Source: a virus. From it: a stretch of 64,000 bases of DNA. This document shows, one piece after another, positions 13,168 through 19,002 of the stretch (within the stretch, counting starts at the first letter, position 1; each line of letters begins with the position of its first letter). Under the pieces are notes generated by a model, which saw only the letters and a program-made list of their open reading frames with translations, had not been told where the DNA came from and made no database searches. The stretch covers positions 9,760 through 73,759 of the IMG/VR virus record IMGVR_UViG_3300009171_000001; one strand, written 5' to 3'. The translations under genes were made by a program, and so were the position numbers.

Positions 13168-13378
13168 ATATCTAATTATATCCTATATATCCTATATATT
13201 TATACCCTGATTAGGGATTTTTAGAATATACCGTTGAAACCTGAAAAAGTCAATAGGCAGGTATAGATTTATAGACGGAAAAAAGTAAAATTTCTTAAGA
13301 TTTTTTGGCCTTAAAATCTTGGTTTTTAGCGTAAAAACGGGGTTTTCCAAGATTTTTTCGATATACCCTAAAATTTTC

Positions 13379-13406
13379 TAAAGATTTCTCTCGCCTTAGC
13401 CGATAA
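13379..13406 (+). promoter_or_regulatory. Putative early promoter, sigma28-like TAAAG-N15-GCCGATAA
   Basis: TAAAGATT at 13379 and GCCGATAA at 13399-13406, at the head of the rightward early region. Confidence 0.5.
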
Positions 13407-13429
13407 CGTATAGTATAGTATATATAGTA

Positions 13430-13770
13430 TAGGCTATAAAGTATAGCCTAAGCATATTTGACAAGTTTATATCGGAGGCCGGGAAGGGCGGATTTTACTA
13501 CGGGGTAAGATTACGCGGTCGGCCTAAAATACCGGAAGGAATCTAAGTCGATACGCTACGGCTTACCTGGAAGTCCCGCTCCCGAAGAGGGCAGGCGGGT
13601 ATCTAAGGAAACTACGGGTGGACGGCTTCCAGCTCTATTTCAACCACGCTTCGGCCTCAGGCCCGATAGGGGTTAAAATAGTATCAAGGCTGGCGGCGGG
13701 GCAGGGCGATATATCGTAAGGATTTACGGGCAAGCGGGCGATACCAAGCAGATTTATCTGCCGGCAAAAG
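13430..13770 (+). ncRNA. Putative structured leader RNA of the early transcript
   Basis: ORF-free GC-rich island; hairpin 13430-13450; boxA-like GCATATTTGACAA at 13452; pairings GAGGCCG(13475)/CGGCCTC(13652), CTGGAAGTC(13567)/GGCTTCCAG(13624), CCCGC/GCGGG. Confidence 0.55.
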
Positions 13771-13850
13771 TCCACAATATAATATAAGATATATATACTT
13801 TATATATATACTTATATTACCAATTCTCCCTTAGAAAGAAAATTAGATTA

Positions 13851-13913
13851 GGGCCTAATCGGATTACCCGACAAAATATATCGGGTATAGCGGTTCAACT
13901 CCGCTATAGGCTC
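13851..13913 (+). ncRNA. tRNA-mimic element T1 (acceptor stem + T-arm, no D/anticodon arms)
   Basis: GGGCCTA/TAGGCTC stem; T-arm TAGCGG-TTCAACT-CCGCTA; internal TACCCGA/TCGGGTA hairpin. Confidence 0.7.
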
Positions 13914-13926
13914 TTGTGTTTGTAAG

Positions 13927-13969
13927 TAAAATATCTAATAATTATCTTATTTAAGGAGAACAAAAAATG
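13927..13969 (+). promoter_or_regulatory. Conserved early-gene leader/RBS (TAAAATATCTAATAATTATCTTATTTAAGGAGAACAAAAATG)
   Basis: Near-identical copies start at about 13927, 14310, 14684, 15150, 16122, 16474 and 18688; RBS-only copies near 18990 and 19917. Confidence 0.85.
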
Positions 13970-14233
13970 AAAACCGAAACGAAAACCGAAACGAAAATTA
14001 CGAACGCCGAAAAAAGGGTAATCTTATCCGCTATTCGGGAAAAGATAAAAATCGCCTCCGATATTCTTTCCGTCGCCACCGTCGAGGAAAATTACGAGGA
14101 TGAGGTAGTTATCGATGCGATAACGGACGCGGCGTTAATCATCGAAATCGCGTATCTTAATTCGCTCGATGACGGCGGAGCGAGGATTCTTTACCCGCCG
14201 AAAGACGGGGAGGCCTACCGGAACGGGGAATAA
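13967..14233 (+). CDS. Early hypothetical protein
   Basis: 88 aa; conserved leader/RBS. Confidence 0.8.
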   Translation: MKTETKTETKITNAEKRVILSAIREKIKIASDILSVATVEENYEDEVVIDAITDAALIIEIAYLNSLDDGGARILYPPKDGEAYRNGE

Positions 14234-14234
14234 A

Positions 14235-14310
14235 AGTTGAAATACCCGATAATCTATATCGGGTATATATAGGTGAAAAGCGATAACCTATACTGATGAG
14301 ACTAATCGCT
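14235..14310 (+). ncRNA. Hammerhead ribozyme, type II (HH1)
   Basis: AGTT-GAAA-stem III (TACCCGAT/ATCGGGTA)-TA-stem I (TATAGGT/ACCTATA)-CTGATGA-GACT; loop AGCGAT pairs with 3' ATCGCT; predicted cut after 14267. Confidence 0.92.
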
Positions 14311-14347
14311 AAAATATCTATTTAATATCTATTTAAGGAGAACAAAA

Positions 14348-14623
14348 ATGAGAACGTCGAGAAAAGCTCCGATTATTCAAGTCCGAACTTTGGCCGAAAG
14401 GATAATCGAAATTAGCGAAAATCCACTAAGTGAAGCAGATTTTGAAGGGAAGACGGGACGCTCTCGGAGCGAGGTATTACTATTTTTAGCGAAGACTATC
14501 CTAATGGAATTAGAATCCACCGCTAAGTCTCGCCTCTTATATATACCCGCTAAGTCAAGCATTGCCGCTAAGTCAAGCATTGCCGCTAAGTCAAGCATTG
14601 CCGCTAAGTCAAGCATCCGCTAA
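14348..14623 (+). CDS. Early hypothetical protein with C-terminal AAKSSI repeats
   Basis: 91 aa; conserved leader/RBS. Confidence 0.75.
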   Translation: MRTSRKAPIIQVRTLAERIIEISENPLSEADFEGKTGRSRSEVLLFLAKTILMELESTAKSRLLYIPAKSSIAAKSSIAAKSSIAAKSSIR

Positions 14624-14626
14624 GTC
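14547..14626 (+). repeat. 18-bp tandem repeat CCGCTAAGTCAAGCATTG (~4 copies)
   Basis: Directly visible in the sequence. Confidence 0.9.
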
Positions 14627-14676
14627 TCCATCTGAAATAGAGGTCAGATTTATAGGTTCGACTCCTATGGAGACTT
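14622..14676 (+). ncRNA. tRNA-mimic element T2
   Basis: AAGTCTCC/GGAGACTT stem; T-arm ATAGG-TTCGACT-CCTAT; internal ATCTGA/TCAGAT hairpin. Confidence 0.72.
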
Positions 14677-14722
14677 TTGTAAGTAAAATATCTAATAATT
14701 ATCTTATTTAAGGAGAACAAAA

Positions 14723-15058
14723 ATGAAGACCAAAATAAAAGACACATTAAGACCATTCACTAAACAGGATGATCGCGTTTTTTGCAGCACTAAAAAACCT
14801 TCGGATGGCTCAACACCACTTATCGGCAGGGTCAAGATAACAAATTGGCCTGATTCCGATAAAACTGATGGGTGGGATGACTTTGTGACTGTAATAGTGG
14901 ATGGCCTCGGAGTATGTTTGTGTGGGACAGATGGTGTATTAACAAGAGCCATCCCAGATTTTGAAGATGCTAAGGCCATTGCATATTACATTCTCTCCAC
15001 TCCCACAGATTACATCCAACTGGTAAATAGCGGCAAGTGGGAATCCATCAATCTGTAG
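14723..15058 (+). CDS. Early hypothetical protein
   Basis: 111 aa; conserved leader/RBS. Confidence 0.8.
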   Translation: MKTKIKDTLRPFTKQDDRVFCSTKKPSDGSTPLIGRVKITNWPDSDKTDGWDDFVTVIVDGLGVCLCGTDGVLTRAIPDFEDAKAIAYYILSTPTDYIQLVNSGKWESINL

Positions 15059-15074
15059 TAAAAACCGCCCGCTA

Positions 15075-15150
15075 AGTCGAAATACCCGATATAGATTATC
15101 GGGTATATATAGGTCAAAGCGATGAACCTATACTGATGAGACTAATCGCT
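15075..15150 (+). ncRNA. Hammerhead ribozyme, type II (HH2)
   Basis: AGTC-GAAA-stem III-TA-stem I-CTGATGA(15133-15139)-GACT plus pseudoknot; predicted cut after 15107. Confidence 0.94.
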
Positions 15151-15187
15151 AAAATATCTAATAATTATCTTATTAAGGAGAACAAAA

Positions 15188-16048
15188 ATGAAGACAGTAA
15201 AAACAAACCGATTAAGTGAACGTGCTATGCTGGTACACCTGCGCATTTTGAGATATGCCGGTCATACCAAAGACAATGAAGTAGTTTTGGACGTTTGTTC
15301 GCAAAAACAAGCCACTCAGGACAGCGGTGGATGGTACACCTATTTGATTCCAAAAAAGGAATTGAGTGGTGTTAATCACGCTGCTTCCCGATGTCGCGAA
15401 ATCCACAATCACTATACTTTTCCATGGCTGGATGGTGGGATGCGGATATTACCATCTTTGTATTTCTTCAAATACCGCGAAGCCATCGCTACGGCCATCG
15501 CTGAGTATGATGAGGCAGTTGAGATATTTCTAACCAGATACCCAGACATTGTAACTAAGTCCAAGGAACGTCTGGGTCAACTGAACAGAATAATGCCATC
15601 GGTGAAGGAGATTCAAAGCAAGTTTGCAGTTTCACACAGCATATTTCCACTGCCTGAGACGGAGGACTTCCGTGTCAAATTGGCGGATGAGGAAAAGGAG
15701 TCTGTGAAAGCAACAATCACAGACAGTCTCAATGCCACAATGACGGCTGCGGTCAGTGCCGTTTGGGGCAAATTAGCCAAGTCTGTGGAAAAGATTGCTG
15801 CAGCCACAAAGGACAAAGACAAACAATTTCGCAATGTCCTTTTCACAAACTTGGTTCAACTGTGTGAGGATTTGCCTCAACTGAATTTTACTAATGACGT
15901 CAAATTAGAAGAGGTGAGACAGCACATCTTAACTACGCTGGCTAAATTCAATCCAGATGATGTTCGTGAAGACAGTCAAAAACGCAAGGCAGCTGCCAAA
16001 GCAGCCAAAGACGTTTTGAACAAGATGAAAGATTATGCAACTACATAG
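15188..16048 (+). CDS. Conserved phage early protein (DUF3150-like)
   Basis: LSERAMLVHLRI...HYTFPW.DGG.RILP pattern, of the kind often found beside AAA/VWA pairs. Confidence 0.55.
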   Translation: MKTVKTNRLSERAMLVHLRILRYAGHTKDNEVVLDVCSQKQATQDSGGWYTYLIPKKELSGVNHAASRCREIHNHYTFPWLDGGMRILPSLYFFKYREAIATAIAEYDEAVEIFLTRYPDIVTKSKERLGQLNRIMPSVKEIQSKFAVSHSIFPLPETEDFRVKLADEEKESVKATITDSLNATMTAAVSAVWGKLAKSVEKIAAATKDKDKQFRNVLFTNLVQLCEDLPQLNFTNDVKLEEVRQHILTTLAKFNPDDVREDSQKRKAAAKAAKDVLNKMKDYATT

Positions 16049-16058
16049 CGTGTTCTCC

Positions 16059-16108
16059 GACCACCGCAGGTTTCAGGCCGTTAATGGGTTCAAACCCCAT
16101 CGGTGGTC
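16059..16108 (+). ncRNA. tRNA-mimic element T3
   Basis: GACCACCG/CGGTGGTC stem; T-arm ATGGG-TTCAAAC-CCCAT. Confidence 0.72.
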
Positions 16109-16160
16109 TTGTGTTTGTATGTAAAATATCTAATAATTATCTTATTTAAGGAGAACAAAA

Positions 16161-16400
16161 ATGAACCTGCAAGAAATTAAAAGCCGAGTTGAGGCACTAA
16201 AAGCCTCTCTGAAAATTGATGCTGTCGATGCCATTTATGAAGACAGCTTTGCGCTCGGCTATTTTGGCAATCAAATCCAGCATGAAATTGCCGGCCACGA
16301 AGGTTGCTTTGCCTATGCTCGTACATCGAGCAAAGCTCGCATCGAGGCGATTGTAAACATGCTTGTGAATGAAGGAGAATGTTTGGCCAAAAAAGACTAA
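16161..16400 (+). CDS. Early hypothetical protein
   Basis: 79 aa; conserved leader/RBS. Confidence 0.8.
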   Translation: MNLQEIKSRVEALKASLKIDAVDAIYEDSFALGYFGNQIQHEIAGHEGCFAYARTSSKARIEAIVNMLVNEGECLAKKD

Positions 16401-16474
16401 GTCGAAATACCCGATATAGAATATCGGGTATCTACGGATAAAAGCGATAATCCGTATCGAAAAGACTAATCGCT
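16400..16474 (+). ncRNA. Hammerhead ribozyme type II with variant core UCGAAAA (HH3)
   Basis: AGTC-GAAA-stem III-TC-stem I (TACGGAT/ATCCGTA)-TCGAAAA(16457-16463)-GACT plus AGCGAT/ATCGCT pseudoknot; predicted cut after 16432. Confidence 0.8.
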
Positions 16475-16511
16475 AAAATATCTAATAAATATCTTAAAAA
16501 GGAGAACAAAA

Positions 16512-17498
16512 ATGAATGCTAAACAAATGAAAGTTGTACTGACTAAGTGCATCAAAAACGGTTTGCCCGTGCTTATCAAAGGAGCGCCAGGTGTTGGCAA
16601 GTCTGATGTCGTGACGCAAGTAGCTGCTGAATTGAAGATGGATTTAATCATCAGCCATCCAGTGGTAAGTGACCCGACAGACTTCAAAGGTCTGCCAGGG
16701 ATTGTGGATGGCAAAGCTGAATTTTTGCCGTTTGGTGATTTGCGCTCGCTAATTCAAGCCAAAAAGCCAACAATTGCTTTCTTGGATGATTTGGGCCAAG
16801 CACCAGCCGCAGTACAAGCTGCAGCAATGCAACTAATCCTTGCTCGCCGAGTGAATGGACATAAAGTGAGTGACAAGGTGGTATTTATTGCCGCCACTAA
16901 TCGACGGCAAGACAGGGCTGGTGTAACAGGCATCCTTGAACCTGTTAAGTCCAGATTTGCCACCATCATTGAGTTGACACCAGATTTAGACAGCTGGTCT
17001 GAGTGGGCGTTGGCTAATGATGTTCCACCGCAGATTTTGGGCTTTTTGAATTTTCGCCCAAATTTGCTTTGCACCAATGAAGCAACAGCCGATATTGTGA
17101 ACCATCCGTGCCCACGTACTTGGGCTTTTGCAAGCAAATTAATCCAAATTGATTTGACGGATATACAAAGTCTGGCTGGAGCTTTGGGCGAAGGTTGTGC
17201 GGTTGAGTTTGTGGGATTTATGCGAGTGTTCGACAGTTTGCCGAACATTCAAACAATCCTATTAGACCCAGAAAATACCACCATCCCAAATGAACCTGCC
17301 GCTATGTATGCTGTGGTGTCCGCCTTGGTTAATCGAGTGTCCGACAAGACATTCAAAGCCATAGTTACATATGCTGACCGTTTGCCAGCTGATTTTGGCA
17401 CGCTGCTAATCCGTGATTGTGTTAAGTCCAATCCAAACATTCAAAACACTGCTGCTTTTGGTCAATGGGCCATCAAGCACGCTAATTTGCTAATATGA
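16512..17498 (+). CDS. MoxR-like AAA+ ATPase
   Basis: GAPGVGKS Walker A, FLDDLGQA Walker B, AATNR, SRF, PRTW. Confidence 0.9.
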   Translation: MNAKQMKVVLTKCIKNGLPVLIKGAPGVGKSDVVTQVAAELKMDLIISHPVVSDPTDFKGLPGIVDGKAEFLPFGDLRSLIQAKKPTIAFLDDLGQAPAAVQAAAMQLILARRVNGHKVSDKVVFIAATNRRQDRAGVTGILEPVKSRFATIIELTPDLDSWSEWALANDVPPQILGFLNFRPNLLCTNEATADIVNHPCPRTWAFASKLIQIDLTDIQSLAGALGEGCAVEFVGFMRVFDSLPNIQTILLDPENTTIPNEPAAMYAVVSALVNRVSDKTFKAIVTYADRLPADFGTLLIRDCVKSNPNIQNTAAFGQWAIKHANLLI

Positions 17499-17506
17499 GG
17501 TGTACA

Positions 17507-18613
17507 ATGAATGCTATGGAAATTATGACTAAGGCCAGAACTCACTTGTTGCTTGACCATCCATTTTTTGGATGCTTGGCCATGCGATTAAGTCTGGTTG
17601 AGGACAATCAGTTTGAAACAGCGGGGACAGATGGCAAGGAATTGAGATTCAATTCACAATTCATTCAATCATTACGATTGAATCAAGTGGTTGGATTGTT
17701 TGCTCACGAGGTTATGCACTTGGCTTTGGGGCACAACTGGCGGCAAGGCACACGTGAACATGAACGGTGGAACAACGCTGGCGATTACGCCATCAATTCC
17801 AATCTTGTCCGCACTGGGATTCACCTGCCGGATGGTGCTTTGATTGCTTATCAGTTTGACAAAATGAGTGCAGAAGAAATTTACACTTATCTTCCGTCCA
17901 ATCCAAACCAAAATCAAAGCTCCGGCTCAAGCCAAACGTCTGATCCAGGTGGTTGCGGGGCAGTATTACCCACACCCAATGATTCTCAACTGGATGAGAC
18001 TAAGGCAGAGTGGAAGACAGCAGTGGCTCAAGCCATACAATTTGCTGGCATCGGTAATTTGCCTGCGGATTTGGCTCGCCAATTACAATCGGTGATTGAC
18101 CCATCGTTGCCATGGTATGTATTGCTGCGTGATTTTGTAGAACGCTCAGCGCGCAACGATTTCACTTGGCAAAGGCCAAATGCTCGCTACATCAATCAAG
18201 GCATTGTTCTGCCAGGATTGATTAGTGAAGAGTTGCCTGAAGTGATTGTGGCTGTTGATACCAGTGGCTCAATTAGTCAAGCCCAATTGGATTCTTTTGC
18301 GGCTGAGGCCAGTGCGGTGCTTAGTGCTTACAAAACAACAATCCGTGTGATATATTGCGACAACGAAGTACAAGGCGAGCAAATCTATCAAACAGATGAT
18401 TTGCCCATCCACTTATCACCGAAAGGTGGTGGCGGGACAAAGTTTGACCCTGTGTTCCGCTATGTAAACGAGAATGGATATACACCATCCTGCGTGATAT
18501 ATCTGACGGATTTGTTGGGGCCCACACCCCAATGTGAGCCAGAATGCCCTGTACTTTGGGTAAGTACAAAGCCAGGCAAAATGCCCTTTGGTACAGTGAT
18601 TCAACTGAATTGA
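17507..18613 (+). CDS. Metallopeptidase (HEXXH)-VWA domain protein (DUF2201-like)
   Basis: AHEVMH, DYAIN, VAVDTSGS MIDAS, GGGGT.F.PVF, YLTD. Confidence 0.9.
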   Translation: MNAMEIMTKARTHLLLDHPFFGCLAMRLSLVEDNQFETAGTDGKELRFNSQFIQSLRLNQVVGLFAHEVMHLALGHNWRQGTREHERWNNAGDYAINSNLVRTGIHLPDGALIAYQFDKMSAEEIYTYLPSNPNQNQSSGSSQTSDPGGCGAVLPTPNDSQLDETKAEWKTAVAQAIQFAGIGNLPADLARQLQSVIDPSLPWYVLLRDFVERSARNDFTWQRPNARYINQGIVLPGLISEELPEVIVAVDTSGSISQAQLDSFAAEASAVLSAYKTTIRVIYCDNEVQGEQIYQTDDLPIHLSPKGGGGTKFDPVFRYVNENGYTPSCVIYLTDLLGPTPQCEPECPVLWVSTKPGKMPFGTVIQLN

Positions 18614-18614
18614 A

Positions 18615-18688
18615 TGTCGAAATACCCGATAATCTATATCGGGTATATATAGGCTAAGGCGATAACCTATACTGATGAGACAATCGCT
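18615..18688 (+). ncRNA. Hammerhead ribozyme, type II (HH4)
   Basis: TGTC-GAAA-stem III-TA-stem I (TATAGG/CCTATA)-CTGATGA(18672-18678)-GACA with compensatory stem II; predicted cut after 18647. Confidence 0.93.
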
Positions 18689-18724
18689 AAAATATCTAAT
18701 AAATATCTTAAAAGGAGAACAAAA

Positions 18725-18931
18725 ATGGAACTATGGACTAAAACACGATGGACTCGCTTGCGAAAGAAATCGAAAATAATTCAAACGGGTGGGATTGAAG
18801 GTTCACAAATTTACAATCTCATAATCGAAACACCCGAAGGCAAACACCTGGCTGGAGACTTGATATGGGATGGGTGGGCAGAGCTTGTGCAAGTCTGGAC
18901 GCCAACACCACAAGAATACAAGCAAACGTAA
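18725..18931 (+). CDS. Early hypothetical protein
   Basis: 68 aa; conserved leader/RBS. Confidence 0.75.
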   Translation: MELWTKTRWTRLRKKSKIIQTGGIEGSQIYNLIIETPEGKHLAGDLIWDGWAELVQVWTPTPQEYKQT

Positions 18932-18949
18932 GGAGAACCAAAATACATC

Positions 18950-18979
18950 CGCTAAGGCTCGCTAAGGCTCGCTAAGGCT
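18950..18979 (+). repeat. 10-bp tandem repeat CGCTAAGGCT x3
   Basis: Directly visible in the intergenic spacer. Confidence 0.85.
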
Positions 18980-19002
18980 AACATTTTTTAAGGAGAACAA
19001 AA

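What the first reader, a model, noticed from the sequence alone, without database searches (positions are those of the whole stretch)
16400..16474. Hammerhead with rare core variant UCGAAAA (U3-A8 compensatory pair, C4)
The CUGAUGA core reads TCGAAAA (16457-16463). The C3-G8 tertiary Watson-Crick pair of the active fold becomes U3-A8, U4 becomes C, and G5, A6 and A9 are kept; the cleavage triplet is AUC. This pattern looks like a maintained variant rather than decay, and motif searches for CUGANGA would miss it. It precedes the AAA/VWA operon and might cleave more slowly, tuning expression (inference).
Basis: partly seen in the sequence, partly recalled or inferred. Interest (0 to 1): 0.75.

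Follow-up and report, generated by a model that had tools for sequence, protein, structure and literature searches.

The report
Phage hammerhead copy with altered core
One of four self-cutting "hammerhead" RNA motifs between the early genes of an uncultured N4-like phage keeps its whole fold but has three changed catalytic letters, so it is a real but probably weakened or disabled copy of a well-known element whose cutting remains untested.

Summary
Window 16400-16474 (+) is a complete type II hammerhead with a pseudoknot. Stem II is 4 bp, stem III 10-11 bp, stem I 7 bp, and loop I pairs with the 3' tail over 6 bp. GAAA, A15.1-U16.1 and C17 are present, but the CUGANGA strand reads UCGAAAA (U3, C4, A7, A8).

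It is a paralogue of three copies with canonical cores in the same early operon (HH1, HH2, HH4). Its stem I differs from theirs by three fully compensated base pairs.

The same variant sits before the same AAA-ATPase gene in a second metagenome contig (L157). That copy is almost identical, so it says nothing about selection. The next relatives have a canonical hammerhead or a tRNA-like element at this junction.

A census of 149 related phage type II hammerheads found no change at positions 3, 4 or 8. U3-A8 and U4C are each already documented in nature (PMC3088659). I found no report of the two together. Earlier notes of this scan list each variant on other phage DNA, but not the combination.

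Best reading: the fold is maintained and self-cleavage after C16432 is attenuated. A catalytically dead copy is nearly as likely. Cutting is untested. Interest is modest.

The parts
16400..16403 (+). Stem II 5' strand (AGUC). Its first A is the last base of the upstream ORF's TAA stop codon.
   Evidence: It pairs with 16464-16467. G10.1-C11.1 is kept.
16404..16407 (+). Core strand G12 A13 A14 A15.1 (GAAA), unchanged.
   Evidence: Invariant in all 8 copies.
16407..16431 (+). Stem III hairpin (10-11 bp), closed by A15.1-U16.1.
   Evidence: One pair is compensated (U-A to C-G) in the L157 copies.
16432..16432 (+). C17. The predicted cleavage is 3' of this base. The paralogues have A17.
   Evidence: Cleavage is inferred, not shown.
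16433..16456 (+). Stem I hairpin (7 bp, UACGGAU/AUCCGUA) with a 10-nt loop that carries the pseudoknot 5' strand AGCGAU (16443-16448).
   Evidence: Three base pairs differ from the paralogues on both sides.
16457..16463 (+). Variant core strand U3 C4 G5 A6 A7 A8 A9 (UCGAAAA, against CUGAUGA in the paralogues).
   Evidence: It is identical in L157:3260-3327.
16464..16467 (+). Stem II 3' strand (GACU).
16469..16474 (+). Pseudoknot 3' strand AUCGCU, which pairs with loop I.
   Evidence: 6 pairs, 100% of cells paired in 8 copies. This type of contact is shown to be needed for fast cleavage in PMC3088659.
16475..16514 (+). Shared AU-rich leader with AGGAG (16500-16504) and the ATG of the AAA ATPase (16512).
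   Evidence: The same leader follows HH1, HH2, HH4 and the tRNA-like elements.
14235..14310 (+). Paralogue HH1, with canonical CUGAUGA core (14293-14299) and A17 at 14267.
15075..15150 (+). Paralogue HH2, with canonical core (15133-15139) and A17 at 15107.
18615..18688 (+). Paralogue HH4, with canonical core (18672-18678), A17 at 18647 and stem II UGUC/GACA.
16512..18613 (+). Downstream cistrons: a MoxR-like AAA ATPase (16512-17498) and a DUF2201 metallopeptidase/VWA-like protein (17495-18613).

Best explanation
HH3 is a true paralogue of the phage's type II, pseudoknot-stabilised hammerhead ribozymes. It lies between a 79-aa ORF and the AAA-ATPase/VWA-like gene pair in the early polycistronic transcript of an uncultured N4-like phage.

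Its hammerhead fold is maintained. Its CUGANGA strand has acquired three transitions at conserved positions (C3U, U4C, G8A) plus U7A at the free position 7.

I infer that the RNA still adopts the hammerhead architecture, and that U3-A8 replaces the C3-G8 tertiary pair. I infer that it self-cleaves after C16432 much more slowly than its paralogues. That would give partial processing, so part of the ATPase/VWA message stays joined to the upstream cistron.

Shown: the anatomy, the paralogy, the compensatory changes in stem I, and the variant's presence in two phage genomes.
Inferred: folding into the active state, residual catalysis, and any effect on expression.
For: - All helices and the 6-bp pseudoknot are perfect, and the minimum-free-energy fold equals the hammerhead junction.
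- Eight of the eleven invariant core letters are kept, as are G10.1-C11.1 and a good cleavage triplet, AUC.
- Positions 3 and 8 changed together into a Watson-Crick pair. This covariation occurs in natural hammerheads and is active in vitro (PMC3088659; about 1,300 examples in PMC4209133).
- U4C is a natural viroid variant. It is less active in vitro but sufficient in vivo (PMC3088659, citing Ambros & Flores 1998).
- A protonated C can replace the U of a U-turn (PMC4105743, PMC6061696).
- Stem I differs from the paralogues by three pairs changed on both sides, so the structure has been selected in this lineage.
- The central segment is 44-50% identical to the paralogues. Its flanks are 86-97% identical, about the level the canonical copies show to each other. 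The variant allele has therefore persisted despite exchange at its flanks.
- The same variant is linked to the ATPase gene in L157, behind a different upstream gene.
- Hammerheads with intact stems but broken cores were not seen among 149 related phage hammerheads. Neutral relics of this kind therefore seem uncommon.
Against: - Three conserved core positions deviate at once.
- In comprehensive mutagenesis of another hammerhead, every single and double mutant of the CUGA turn had low activity except the C3G/G8C swap (PMC9901934).
- Hammerhead-like RNAs that deviated at more than one core position, including a Xanthomonas phage example, were inactive when tested (PMC3088659, Fig. S7 legend).
- There is no comparative depth. 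The only other copy is nearly identical (1 difference in 279 coding nt).
- The orthologous junction in the next relatives carries a canonical core (L126:3906-3957) or a different element.
- None of 149 related hammerheads varies at positions 3, 4 or 8.
- There are no RNA data.
Confidence: 0.42

Rival explanations
1. Catalytically dead hammerhead. The core changes abolished cleavage, either neutrally or because not cutting here is useful. The element survives as a structured intercistronic spacer and leader module, and as a repeat for recombination between gene cassettes. Under this reading the upstream ORF and the ATPase/VWA genes stay on one RNA, bounded by the tRNA-like element T3 and by HH4.
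For: - Three conserved positions are changed, including U4 of the U-turn.
- CUGA-turn mutants have low activity (PMC9901934).
- Candidates with several core deviations, one of them from a phage, were inactive (PMC3088659, Fig. S7 legend). [quoted passage not shown]
- The variant is confined to one lineage. Relatives have a canonical core at the same junction, and 0 of 149 related hammerheads share the changes.
- All four changed letters make the strand identical to UCGAAA of the other core strand (16402-16407), which could reflect a single patch event rather than stepwise selection.
- Mosaic junctions between this phage and L157 fall inside the hammerhead and leader repeats.
Against: - The 3-8 pair is restored as U-A. 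I estimate a chance of roughly 2-5% if three random hits fell on the 11 conserved letters.
- No other conserved letter, stem pair or pseudoknot pair is damaged.
- Stem I shows three compensated pairs.
- Each of the two kinds of change has a functional natural precedent (PMC3088659).
Confidence: 0.35
2. Fully competent variant. The strong pseudoknot and helices offset the core changes, and HH3 cleaves at rates similar to its paralogues. U3-C4-A8 would then be simply an alternative working core.
For: - Tertiary contacts are proposed to offset variant cores (PMC3088659, Discussion).
- U3-A8 is common in some hammerhead families (PMC4209133).
- Earlier notes of this scan call U4C and U3-A8 recurrent minority variants in phage hammerheads (unchecked AI notes).
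Against: - U4C 'considerably decreases activity in vitro' (PMC3088659).
- CUGA-turn mutants have low activity (PMC9901934).
- The combination is not reported, and it was absent from my census and from the scan's notes.
Confidence: 0.13
3. Not a ribozyme-related function at all. The two hairpins would act as a terminator, a promoter, an RNase or protein site, or as a member of the freshwater-2 (RF02980) cis-regulatory motif.
For: - A sub-threshold freshwater-2 match covers 16410-16514 (26.5 bits against a gathering score of 49.9).
- The hairpins are stable.
Against: - The freshwater-2 score comes mostly from two hairpins plus the shared SD/AUG leader. Its third hairpin is not formed here. Similar or better sub-threshold matches fall on the tRNA-like elements.
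- There is no terminator-like or above-chance promoter-like site at the element.
- The element is 84-86% identical to textbook hammerheads in the same operon.
Confidence: 0.05

Closest known systems
Type II hammerhead ribozymes with a loop I / 3'-tail pseudoknot, clustered between genes of phages and prophages (Perreault et al. 2011, PMC3088659; Rfam RF02276)
   Same: - The same permutation (stem II open) and a 6-bp pseudoknot.
- The GAAA strand, A15.1-U16.1 and an H17 site.
- Several copies flank single genes or short gene blocks of a phage transcript.
   Different: - The core strand is UCGAAAA instead of CUGANGA.
- The stems are AU-rich and loop I is long, so RF02276 scores none of the four copies at E <= 10.
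- Here the hammerheads alternate with tRNA-like elements and share a common leader.
Natural U3-A8 covariant hammerheads (Perreault 2011, PMC3088659; Penelope-like element hammerheads, Cervera & de la Pena 2014, PMC4209133)
   Same: The C3-G8 tertiary pair is replaced by U3-A8.
   Different: Those variants keep U4. HH3 also has C4. Most of the Penelope-like element examples are minimal type I motifs in eukaryotes.
Peach latent mosaic viroid hammerhead with U4C (Ambros & Flores 1998, as cited in PMC3088659)
   Same: C replaces U at position 4 of the CUGA turn. Activity is reduced in vitro, yet the variant is biologically sufficient.
   Different: It is a viroid type III hammerhead that keeps C3-G8. 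I could not read the original paper (not held), so the details rest on the citing text.
Inactive hammerhead-like RNAs with several core deviations (PMC3088659, Fig. S7, including a Xanthomonas phage example)
   Same: Phage context, a hammerhead-like fold, and more than one conserved core position changed.
   Different: Their exact changes are not available to me. HH3's changes include a compensated pair, and it has canonical paralogues in the same operon.

Membership tests
Hammerhead ribozyme, type II (Rfam RF02276) | Three-helix junction with stems I and III closed by loops and stem II open | tested here: met
   Stem II is 4 bp, stem III 10-11 bp and stem I 7 bp. The minimum-free-energy fold equals this junction.
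Hammerhead ribozyme, type II (Rfam RF02276) | Core strand G12 A13 A14 with the A15.1-U16.1 pair and the G10.1-C11.1 pair | tested here: met
   (16403-16407, 16431, 16464). Invariant in 8 copies.
Hammerhead ribozyme, type II (Rfam RF02276) | Core strand C3 U4 G5 A6 N7 G8 A9 | tested here: not met
   The strand reads U3 C4 G5 A6 A7 A8 A9 (16457-16463). The 3-8 pair is kept as U-A. U4 is replaced by C.
Hammerhead ribozyme, type II (Rfam RF02276) | Cleavage-site nucleotide H17 (not G) after U16.1 | tested here: met
   C16432.
Hammerhead ribozyme, type II (Rfam RF02276) | [quoted passage not shown] | tested here: met
   16443-16448 pairs with 16469-16474. 100% of cells pair in 8 copies, with one A-U/G-U change.
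Hammerhead ribozyme, type II (Rfam RF02276) | Covariance-model score at or above the gathering threshold (37 bits) | tested here: not met
   No match at E <= 10 for HH3 or for the canonical paralogues. The model does score the relatives' hammerheads at 29-35 bits, so this failure reflects the model's reach rather than HH3's core.
Hammerhead ribozyme, type II (Rfam RF02276) | Homology to hammerheads with a canonical core | tested here: met
   84-86% identical over about 120 nt to HH1, HH2 and HH4. Aligned.
Hammerhead ribozyme, type II (Rfam RF02276) | Site-specific self-cleavage that gives 2',3'-cyclic phosphate and 5'-OH ends | not testable with these tools
   No RNA run was listed. A bench assay is needed.
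freshwater-2 RNA (Rfam RF02980) | Score at or above the gathering threshold (49.9 bits), with three hairpins followed by the SD/AUG | tested here: not met
   26.5 bits. The third hairpin is mispaired.
RAGATH-1 hammerhead (Rfam RF03152) | Full-length match at or above 56.3 bits | tested here: not met
   Only model positions 37-72 match, at 20.5 bits (16394-16432). The letters where the upstream CUGAUGA strand would lie read CAAAAAA.

The most novel reading that the evidence does not exclude
U3-C4-A8 is a working, naturally selected hammerhead core. It would be the first natural case that combines the 3-8 pair swap with a cytosine in the U-turn. Its rate would be set low, or made dependent on pH or metal ions through protonation of C4, so that the phage controls how much ATPase/VWA message is released from the early polycistron. 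The allele's escape from homogenisation by its canonical paralogues would then reflect selection for that tuned rate.
Probability: 0.3. Interest if true: 0.5.

Novelty: new variant of a known kind. Interest (0 to 1): 0.35.

Why it matters
If HH3 cleaves, it enlarges the set of hammerhead cores known to work. It would also show that a phage can hold differently 'timed' ribozymes in one operon. That would bear on how motif searches are written, since CUGANGA descriptors and Rfam RF02276 both miss this element, and on ribozyme engineering.

If HH3 is dead, it is a clean natural example of a disabled ribozyme kept as a structural or recombination module beside three active-looking paralogues.

Either way it is an incremental addition to what has been known since 2011 about hammerheads between phage genes.

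Tried and rejected
- **Rfam, whole window.** Nothing at gathering thresholds. At E-value thresholds only sub-threshold freshwater-2 and a partial RAGATH-1 hammerhead match appear. Neither is accepted as membership.
- **RAGATH-1-like alternative.** A mini stem II (G16395...C16403) would need an upstream core strand, but that strand reads CAAAAAA. Rejected.
- **IMG/VR scans for close relatives of the element.** Four patterns were used: stem III, tail plus leader, the HH3 stem I with any core, and the UCGAAAA core with stem II and the pseudoknot tail. No other copy was found.
- **Protein-guided loci.** These gave the one informative relative, L157, plus relatives at 50-70% ATPase identity without the variant.
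- **Closest other ATPase.** P0002 is 78% identical and lies on a 1.7-kb contig.
- **Cultured phages.** Only distant ATPase matches, at most 38% identity, several of them in ~73-78-kb phages that I recognise from my own knowledge as N4-like.
- **RNA evidence.** No RNA holder was listed, so read ends could not be examined.
- **Hidden pairing.** I considered pairing of the new core (UAUCG 16455-16459) with loop I (CGAUA 16445-16449). It needs stem I melted, and it is sterically implausible as an H-type pseudoknot because no connecting loop is left. The minimum-free-energy fold keeps the hammerhead. Rejected.
- **Terminator or promoter reading.** No site at the element, and counts are not above shuffles.
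- **ARAGORN.** No tRNA found in 13700-19000.
- **Papers not held.** The original papers by Ambros & Flores 1998 and Przybilski & Hammann 2007 are not held. The supplement of Weinberg 2017 is not held.

Full report
**What is there.** The window is bases 9760-73759 of a 73,759-bp IMG/VR virus record with direct terminal repeats. Its AAA ATPase has only distant matches (at most 38% identity) in cultured phages, several of them in ~73-78-kb phages that I recognise from my own knowledge as N4-like.

Reading 16400-16474 on the + strand gives a complete type II hammerhead layout:
- Stem II: AGUC (16400-03) pairs with GACU (16464-67).
- GAAA: 16404-07.
- Stem III: 16407-16/16422-31.
- U16.1 is 16431 and C17 is 16432.
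- Stem I: 16433-39/16450-56.
- Seven-letter strand: UCGAAAA (16457-63).
- Pseudoknot: 6 bp between loop I (AGCGAU, 16443-48) and the 3' tail (AUCGCU, 16469-74).

**Is it more than chance?**
- A descriptor that leaves the 7-nt strand free, run over the whole genome, returns four strong hits: this element and three others at 14235, 15075 and 18615. Those three have textbook CUGAUGA cores, A17 sites and the same pseudoknot. The remaining four hits are weak, with short stems.
- HH3 is 84-86% identical to these paralogues.
- In an alignment of the eight copies from this phage and from contig L157, 98.6% of cells in the proposed pairs are standard pairs, against 21-40% when partners are slid.
- Four pairs change on both sides. 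Three of them are in stem I and are specific to the HH3 lineage: U-A to C-G, A-U to G-C and G-C to A-U.
- Alone, HH3 folds at minimum free energy into exactly the three-helix junction.
- No Rfam family reaches its gathering score. RF02276 finds none of the four copies even at E <= 10. It does score the GC-richer hammerheads of relatives at 29-35 bits, so the miss reflects the model's reach.

**Context.** Each early cistron from about 13850 to 18730 is preceded by an RNA element (a hammerhead or a tRNA-like fold) and a shared leader ending in AAGGAGAACAAAAAUG. HH3 lies between a 79-aa ORF (16161-16400) and an AAA_5/AAA ATPase (16512-17498). The ATPase is followed by a DUF2201_N/DUF2201 (VWA-like) protein. 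HH4 follows that pair.

**Relatives.**
- A 3,650-bp metagenome contig (L157) carries the same variant: UCGAAAA, C17, the same stem I and the same pseudoknot, directly before the same ATPase gene.
- From C17 onward (element, leader and 279 coding nt) the only difference is one synonymous change in the coding part. This conservation therefore says nothing about selection.
- Upstream, the two phages differ. L157 has another gene before the variant, and its stem III carries a compensated C-G pair that is identical to another L157 copy.
- Overall the two phages are mosaics in which the RNA elements and leaders match while the genes between them often do not. The repeats therefore look like junctions for cassette exchange (inference).
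- At 50-70% ATPase identity, the same junction holds one of three things. It may hold a canonical type II hammerhead (L126:3906-3957, CUGACGA, GUC; RF02276 29.1 bits). It may hold a tRNA-like hairpin element, or no recognisable element.
- The variant is thus derived and lineage-specific. Further IMG/VR pattern scans found no other copy.

**How unusual is the core?**
- I seeded a census with a pattern that fixes the GACC...GGUC stem II of the relatives' hammerheads but leaves positions 3, 4, 7 and 8 free.
- In 1.01 Mb from 120 IMG/VR loci, the descriptor found 158 hits. Of these, 149 had CUGANGA. The other nine did not resemble hammerhead cores, and a reversed-sequence control gave five hits.
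- Read without any stem requirement, the seeds gave 108 CUGANGA cores (three-letter variants at N7: CUGACGA 57, CUGAUGA 49, CUGAGGA 2), and the non-CUGANGA matches I inspected looked like chance matches in coding-like sequence without stems.
- So changes at positions 3, 4 or 8 are rare in this related family: 0 of 149.
- In the literature, U3-A8 covariation is documented in natural hammerheads and is active in vitro (PMC3088659; about 1,300 cases in PMC4209133).
- A U4C viroid hammerhead is much less active in vitro but supports infectivity (PMC3088659, citing Ambros & Flores 1998).
- A protonated C can structurally replace the U of a U-turn (PMC4105743, PMC6061696).
[quoted passage not shown] Hammerhead-like RNAs that deviated at more than one core position, one of them from a phage, were inactive (PMC3088659, Fig. 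S7 legend).
- Earlier notes of this scan list U3-A8 and U4C separately in many other phage genomes, but not the combination. These are unchecked leads.

**Reading.**
- The fold is clearly under selection, or at least clearly intact.
- The core evidence is mixed. In favour of continued selection for the active fold: positions 3 and 8 changed together into a pair (my rough estimate is a 2-5% chance for three random hits on the 11 conserved letters, a post hoc figure). In addition, none of the other eight conserved letters, the stems or the pseudoknot is damaged.
- The segment from C17 to A9 is only 44-50% identical to the paralogues. Stem III is 86% identical and the tail plus leader 97%, about the same as the canonical copies are to each other. 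The variant allele has therefore resisted the exchange that keeps the rest alike. This fits selection for a low-cleavage or no-cleavage allele, or a heterology barrier.
- An unexplained point is that all four changed letters make the strand equal to UCGAAA of the opposite core strand (16402-07). This could mean a single templated patch rather than stepwise adaptation.
- I therefore commit to an attenuated hammerhead, with slow and partial cleavage after C16432, at 0.42. The alternatives are a dead but structurally retained copy at 0.35, a fully competent variant at 0.13, and a function unrelated to ribozymes at 0.05.

**Limits.** Cleavage can only be settled at the bench.

Noticed in passing
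window 13851-13920, 14622-14680, 16050-16110: tRNA-like elements (a closing stem around a hairpin, plus a GGUUCRAnYCC T-arm-like hairpin) alternate with the hammerheads, each followed by the shared leader. ARAGORN calls no tRNA here. The best sub-threshold matches to Rfam freshwater-2 (RF02980) fall on these elements plus the leader, for example 25.2 bits at 13867-13969 and 31.8 bits at L157:483-584. The freshwater-2 motif may be this kind of element.
   Followed up: partly
window 14547-14626 and 18950-18979: A tandem array of 4.6 copies of the 18-mer CCGCTAAGTCAAGCATTG lies inside the 3' end of ORF 14348-14623. CCGCUAAGUC is also the 5' boundary of HH2, of the L157 variant copy and of the tRNA-like element T2. 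A second small array, CGCTAAGGCT x3, lies at 18950-18979.
   Followed up: no
L126:6512-6564: A relative's type II hammerhead after the VWA-like gene reads GAGA instead of GAAA (A14G). Its core is otherwise canonical and it has a pseudoknot (RF02276 35.2 bits). This is another core variant in this phage group.
   Followed up: partly
L157:1-3650 against window 13376-16790: The two phages are mosaics. The hammerheads, the tRNA-like elements and the leaders match at 85-99% identity, while several intervening genes have no match. One junction lies inside the variant hammerhead, between stem III and C17. The repeats look like sites of cassette exchange.
   Followed up: partly
window 16391-16400 and 16460-16469; 16402-16407 and 16457-16462: The 10-nt direct repeat AAAAGACUAA flanks the element in this phage only, not in L157. 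The variant strand UCGAAA is identical to the opposite core strand. No mechanism was found.
   Followed up: partly
window 14235-14310, 15075-15150, 18615-18688: Three hammerheads with canonical cores and pseudoknots get no hit from Rfam 15 Hammerhead_II at E <= 10. AU-rich members with a long loop I therefore escape the current model.
   Followed up: yes
window 17495-18613: The gene after the ATPase combines DUF2201_N (putative metallopeptidase, E 1e-48) with the VWA-like DUF2201 domain (E 9e-30). The 'VWA' partner is thus a DUF2201-type protein.
   Followed up: no
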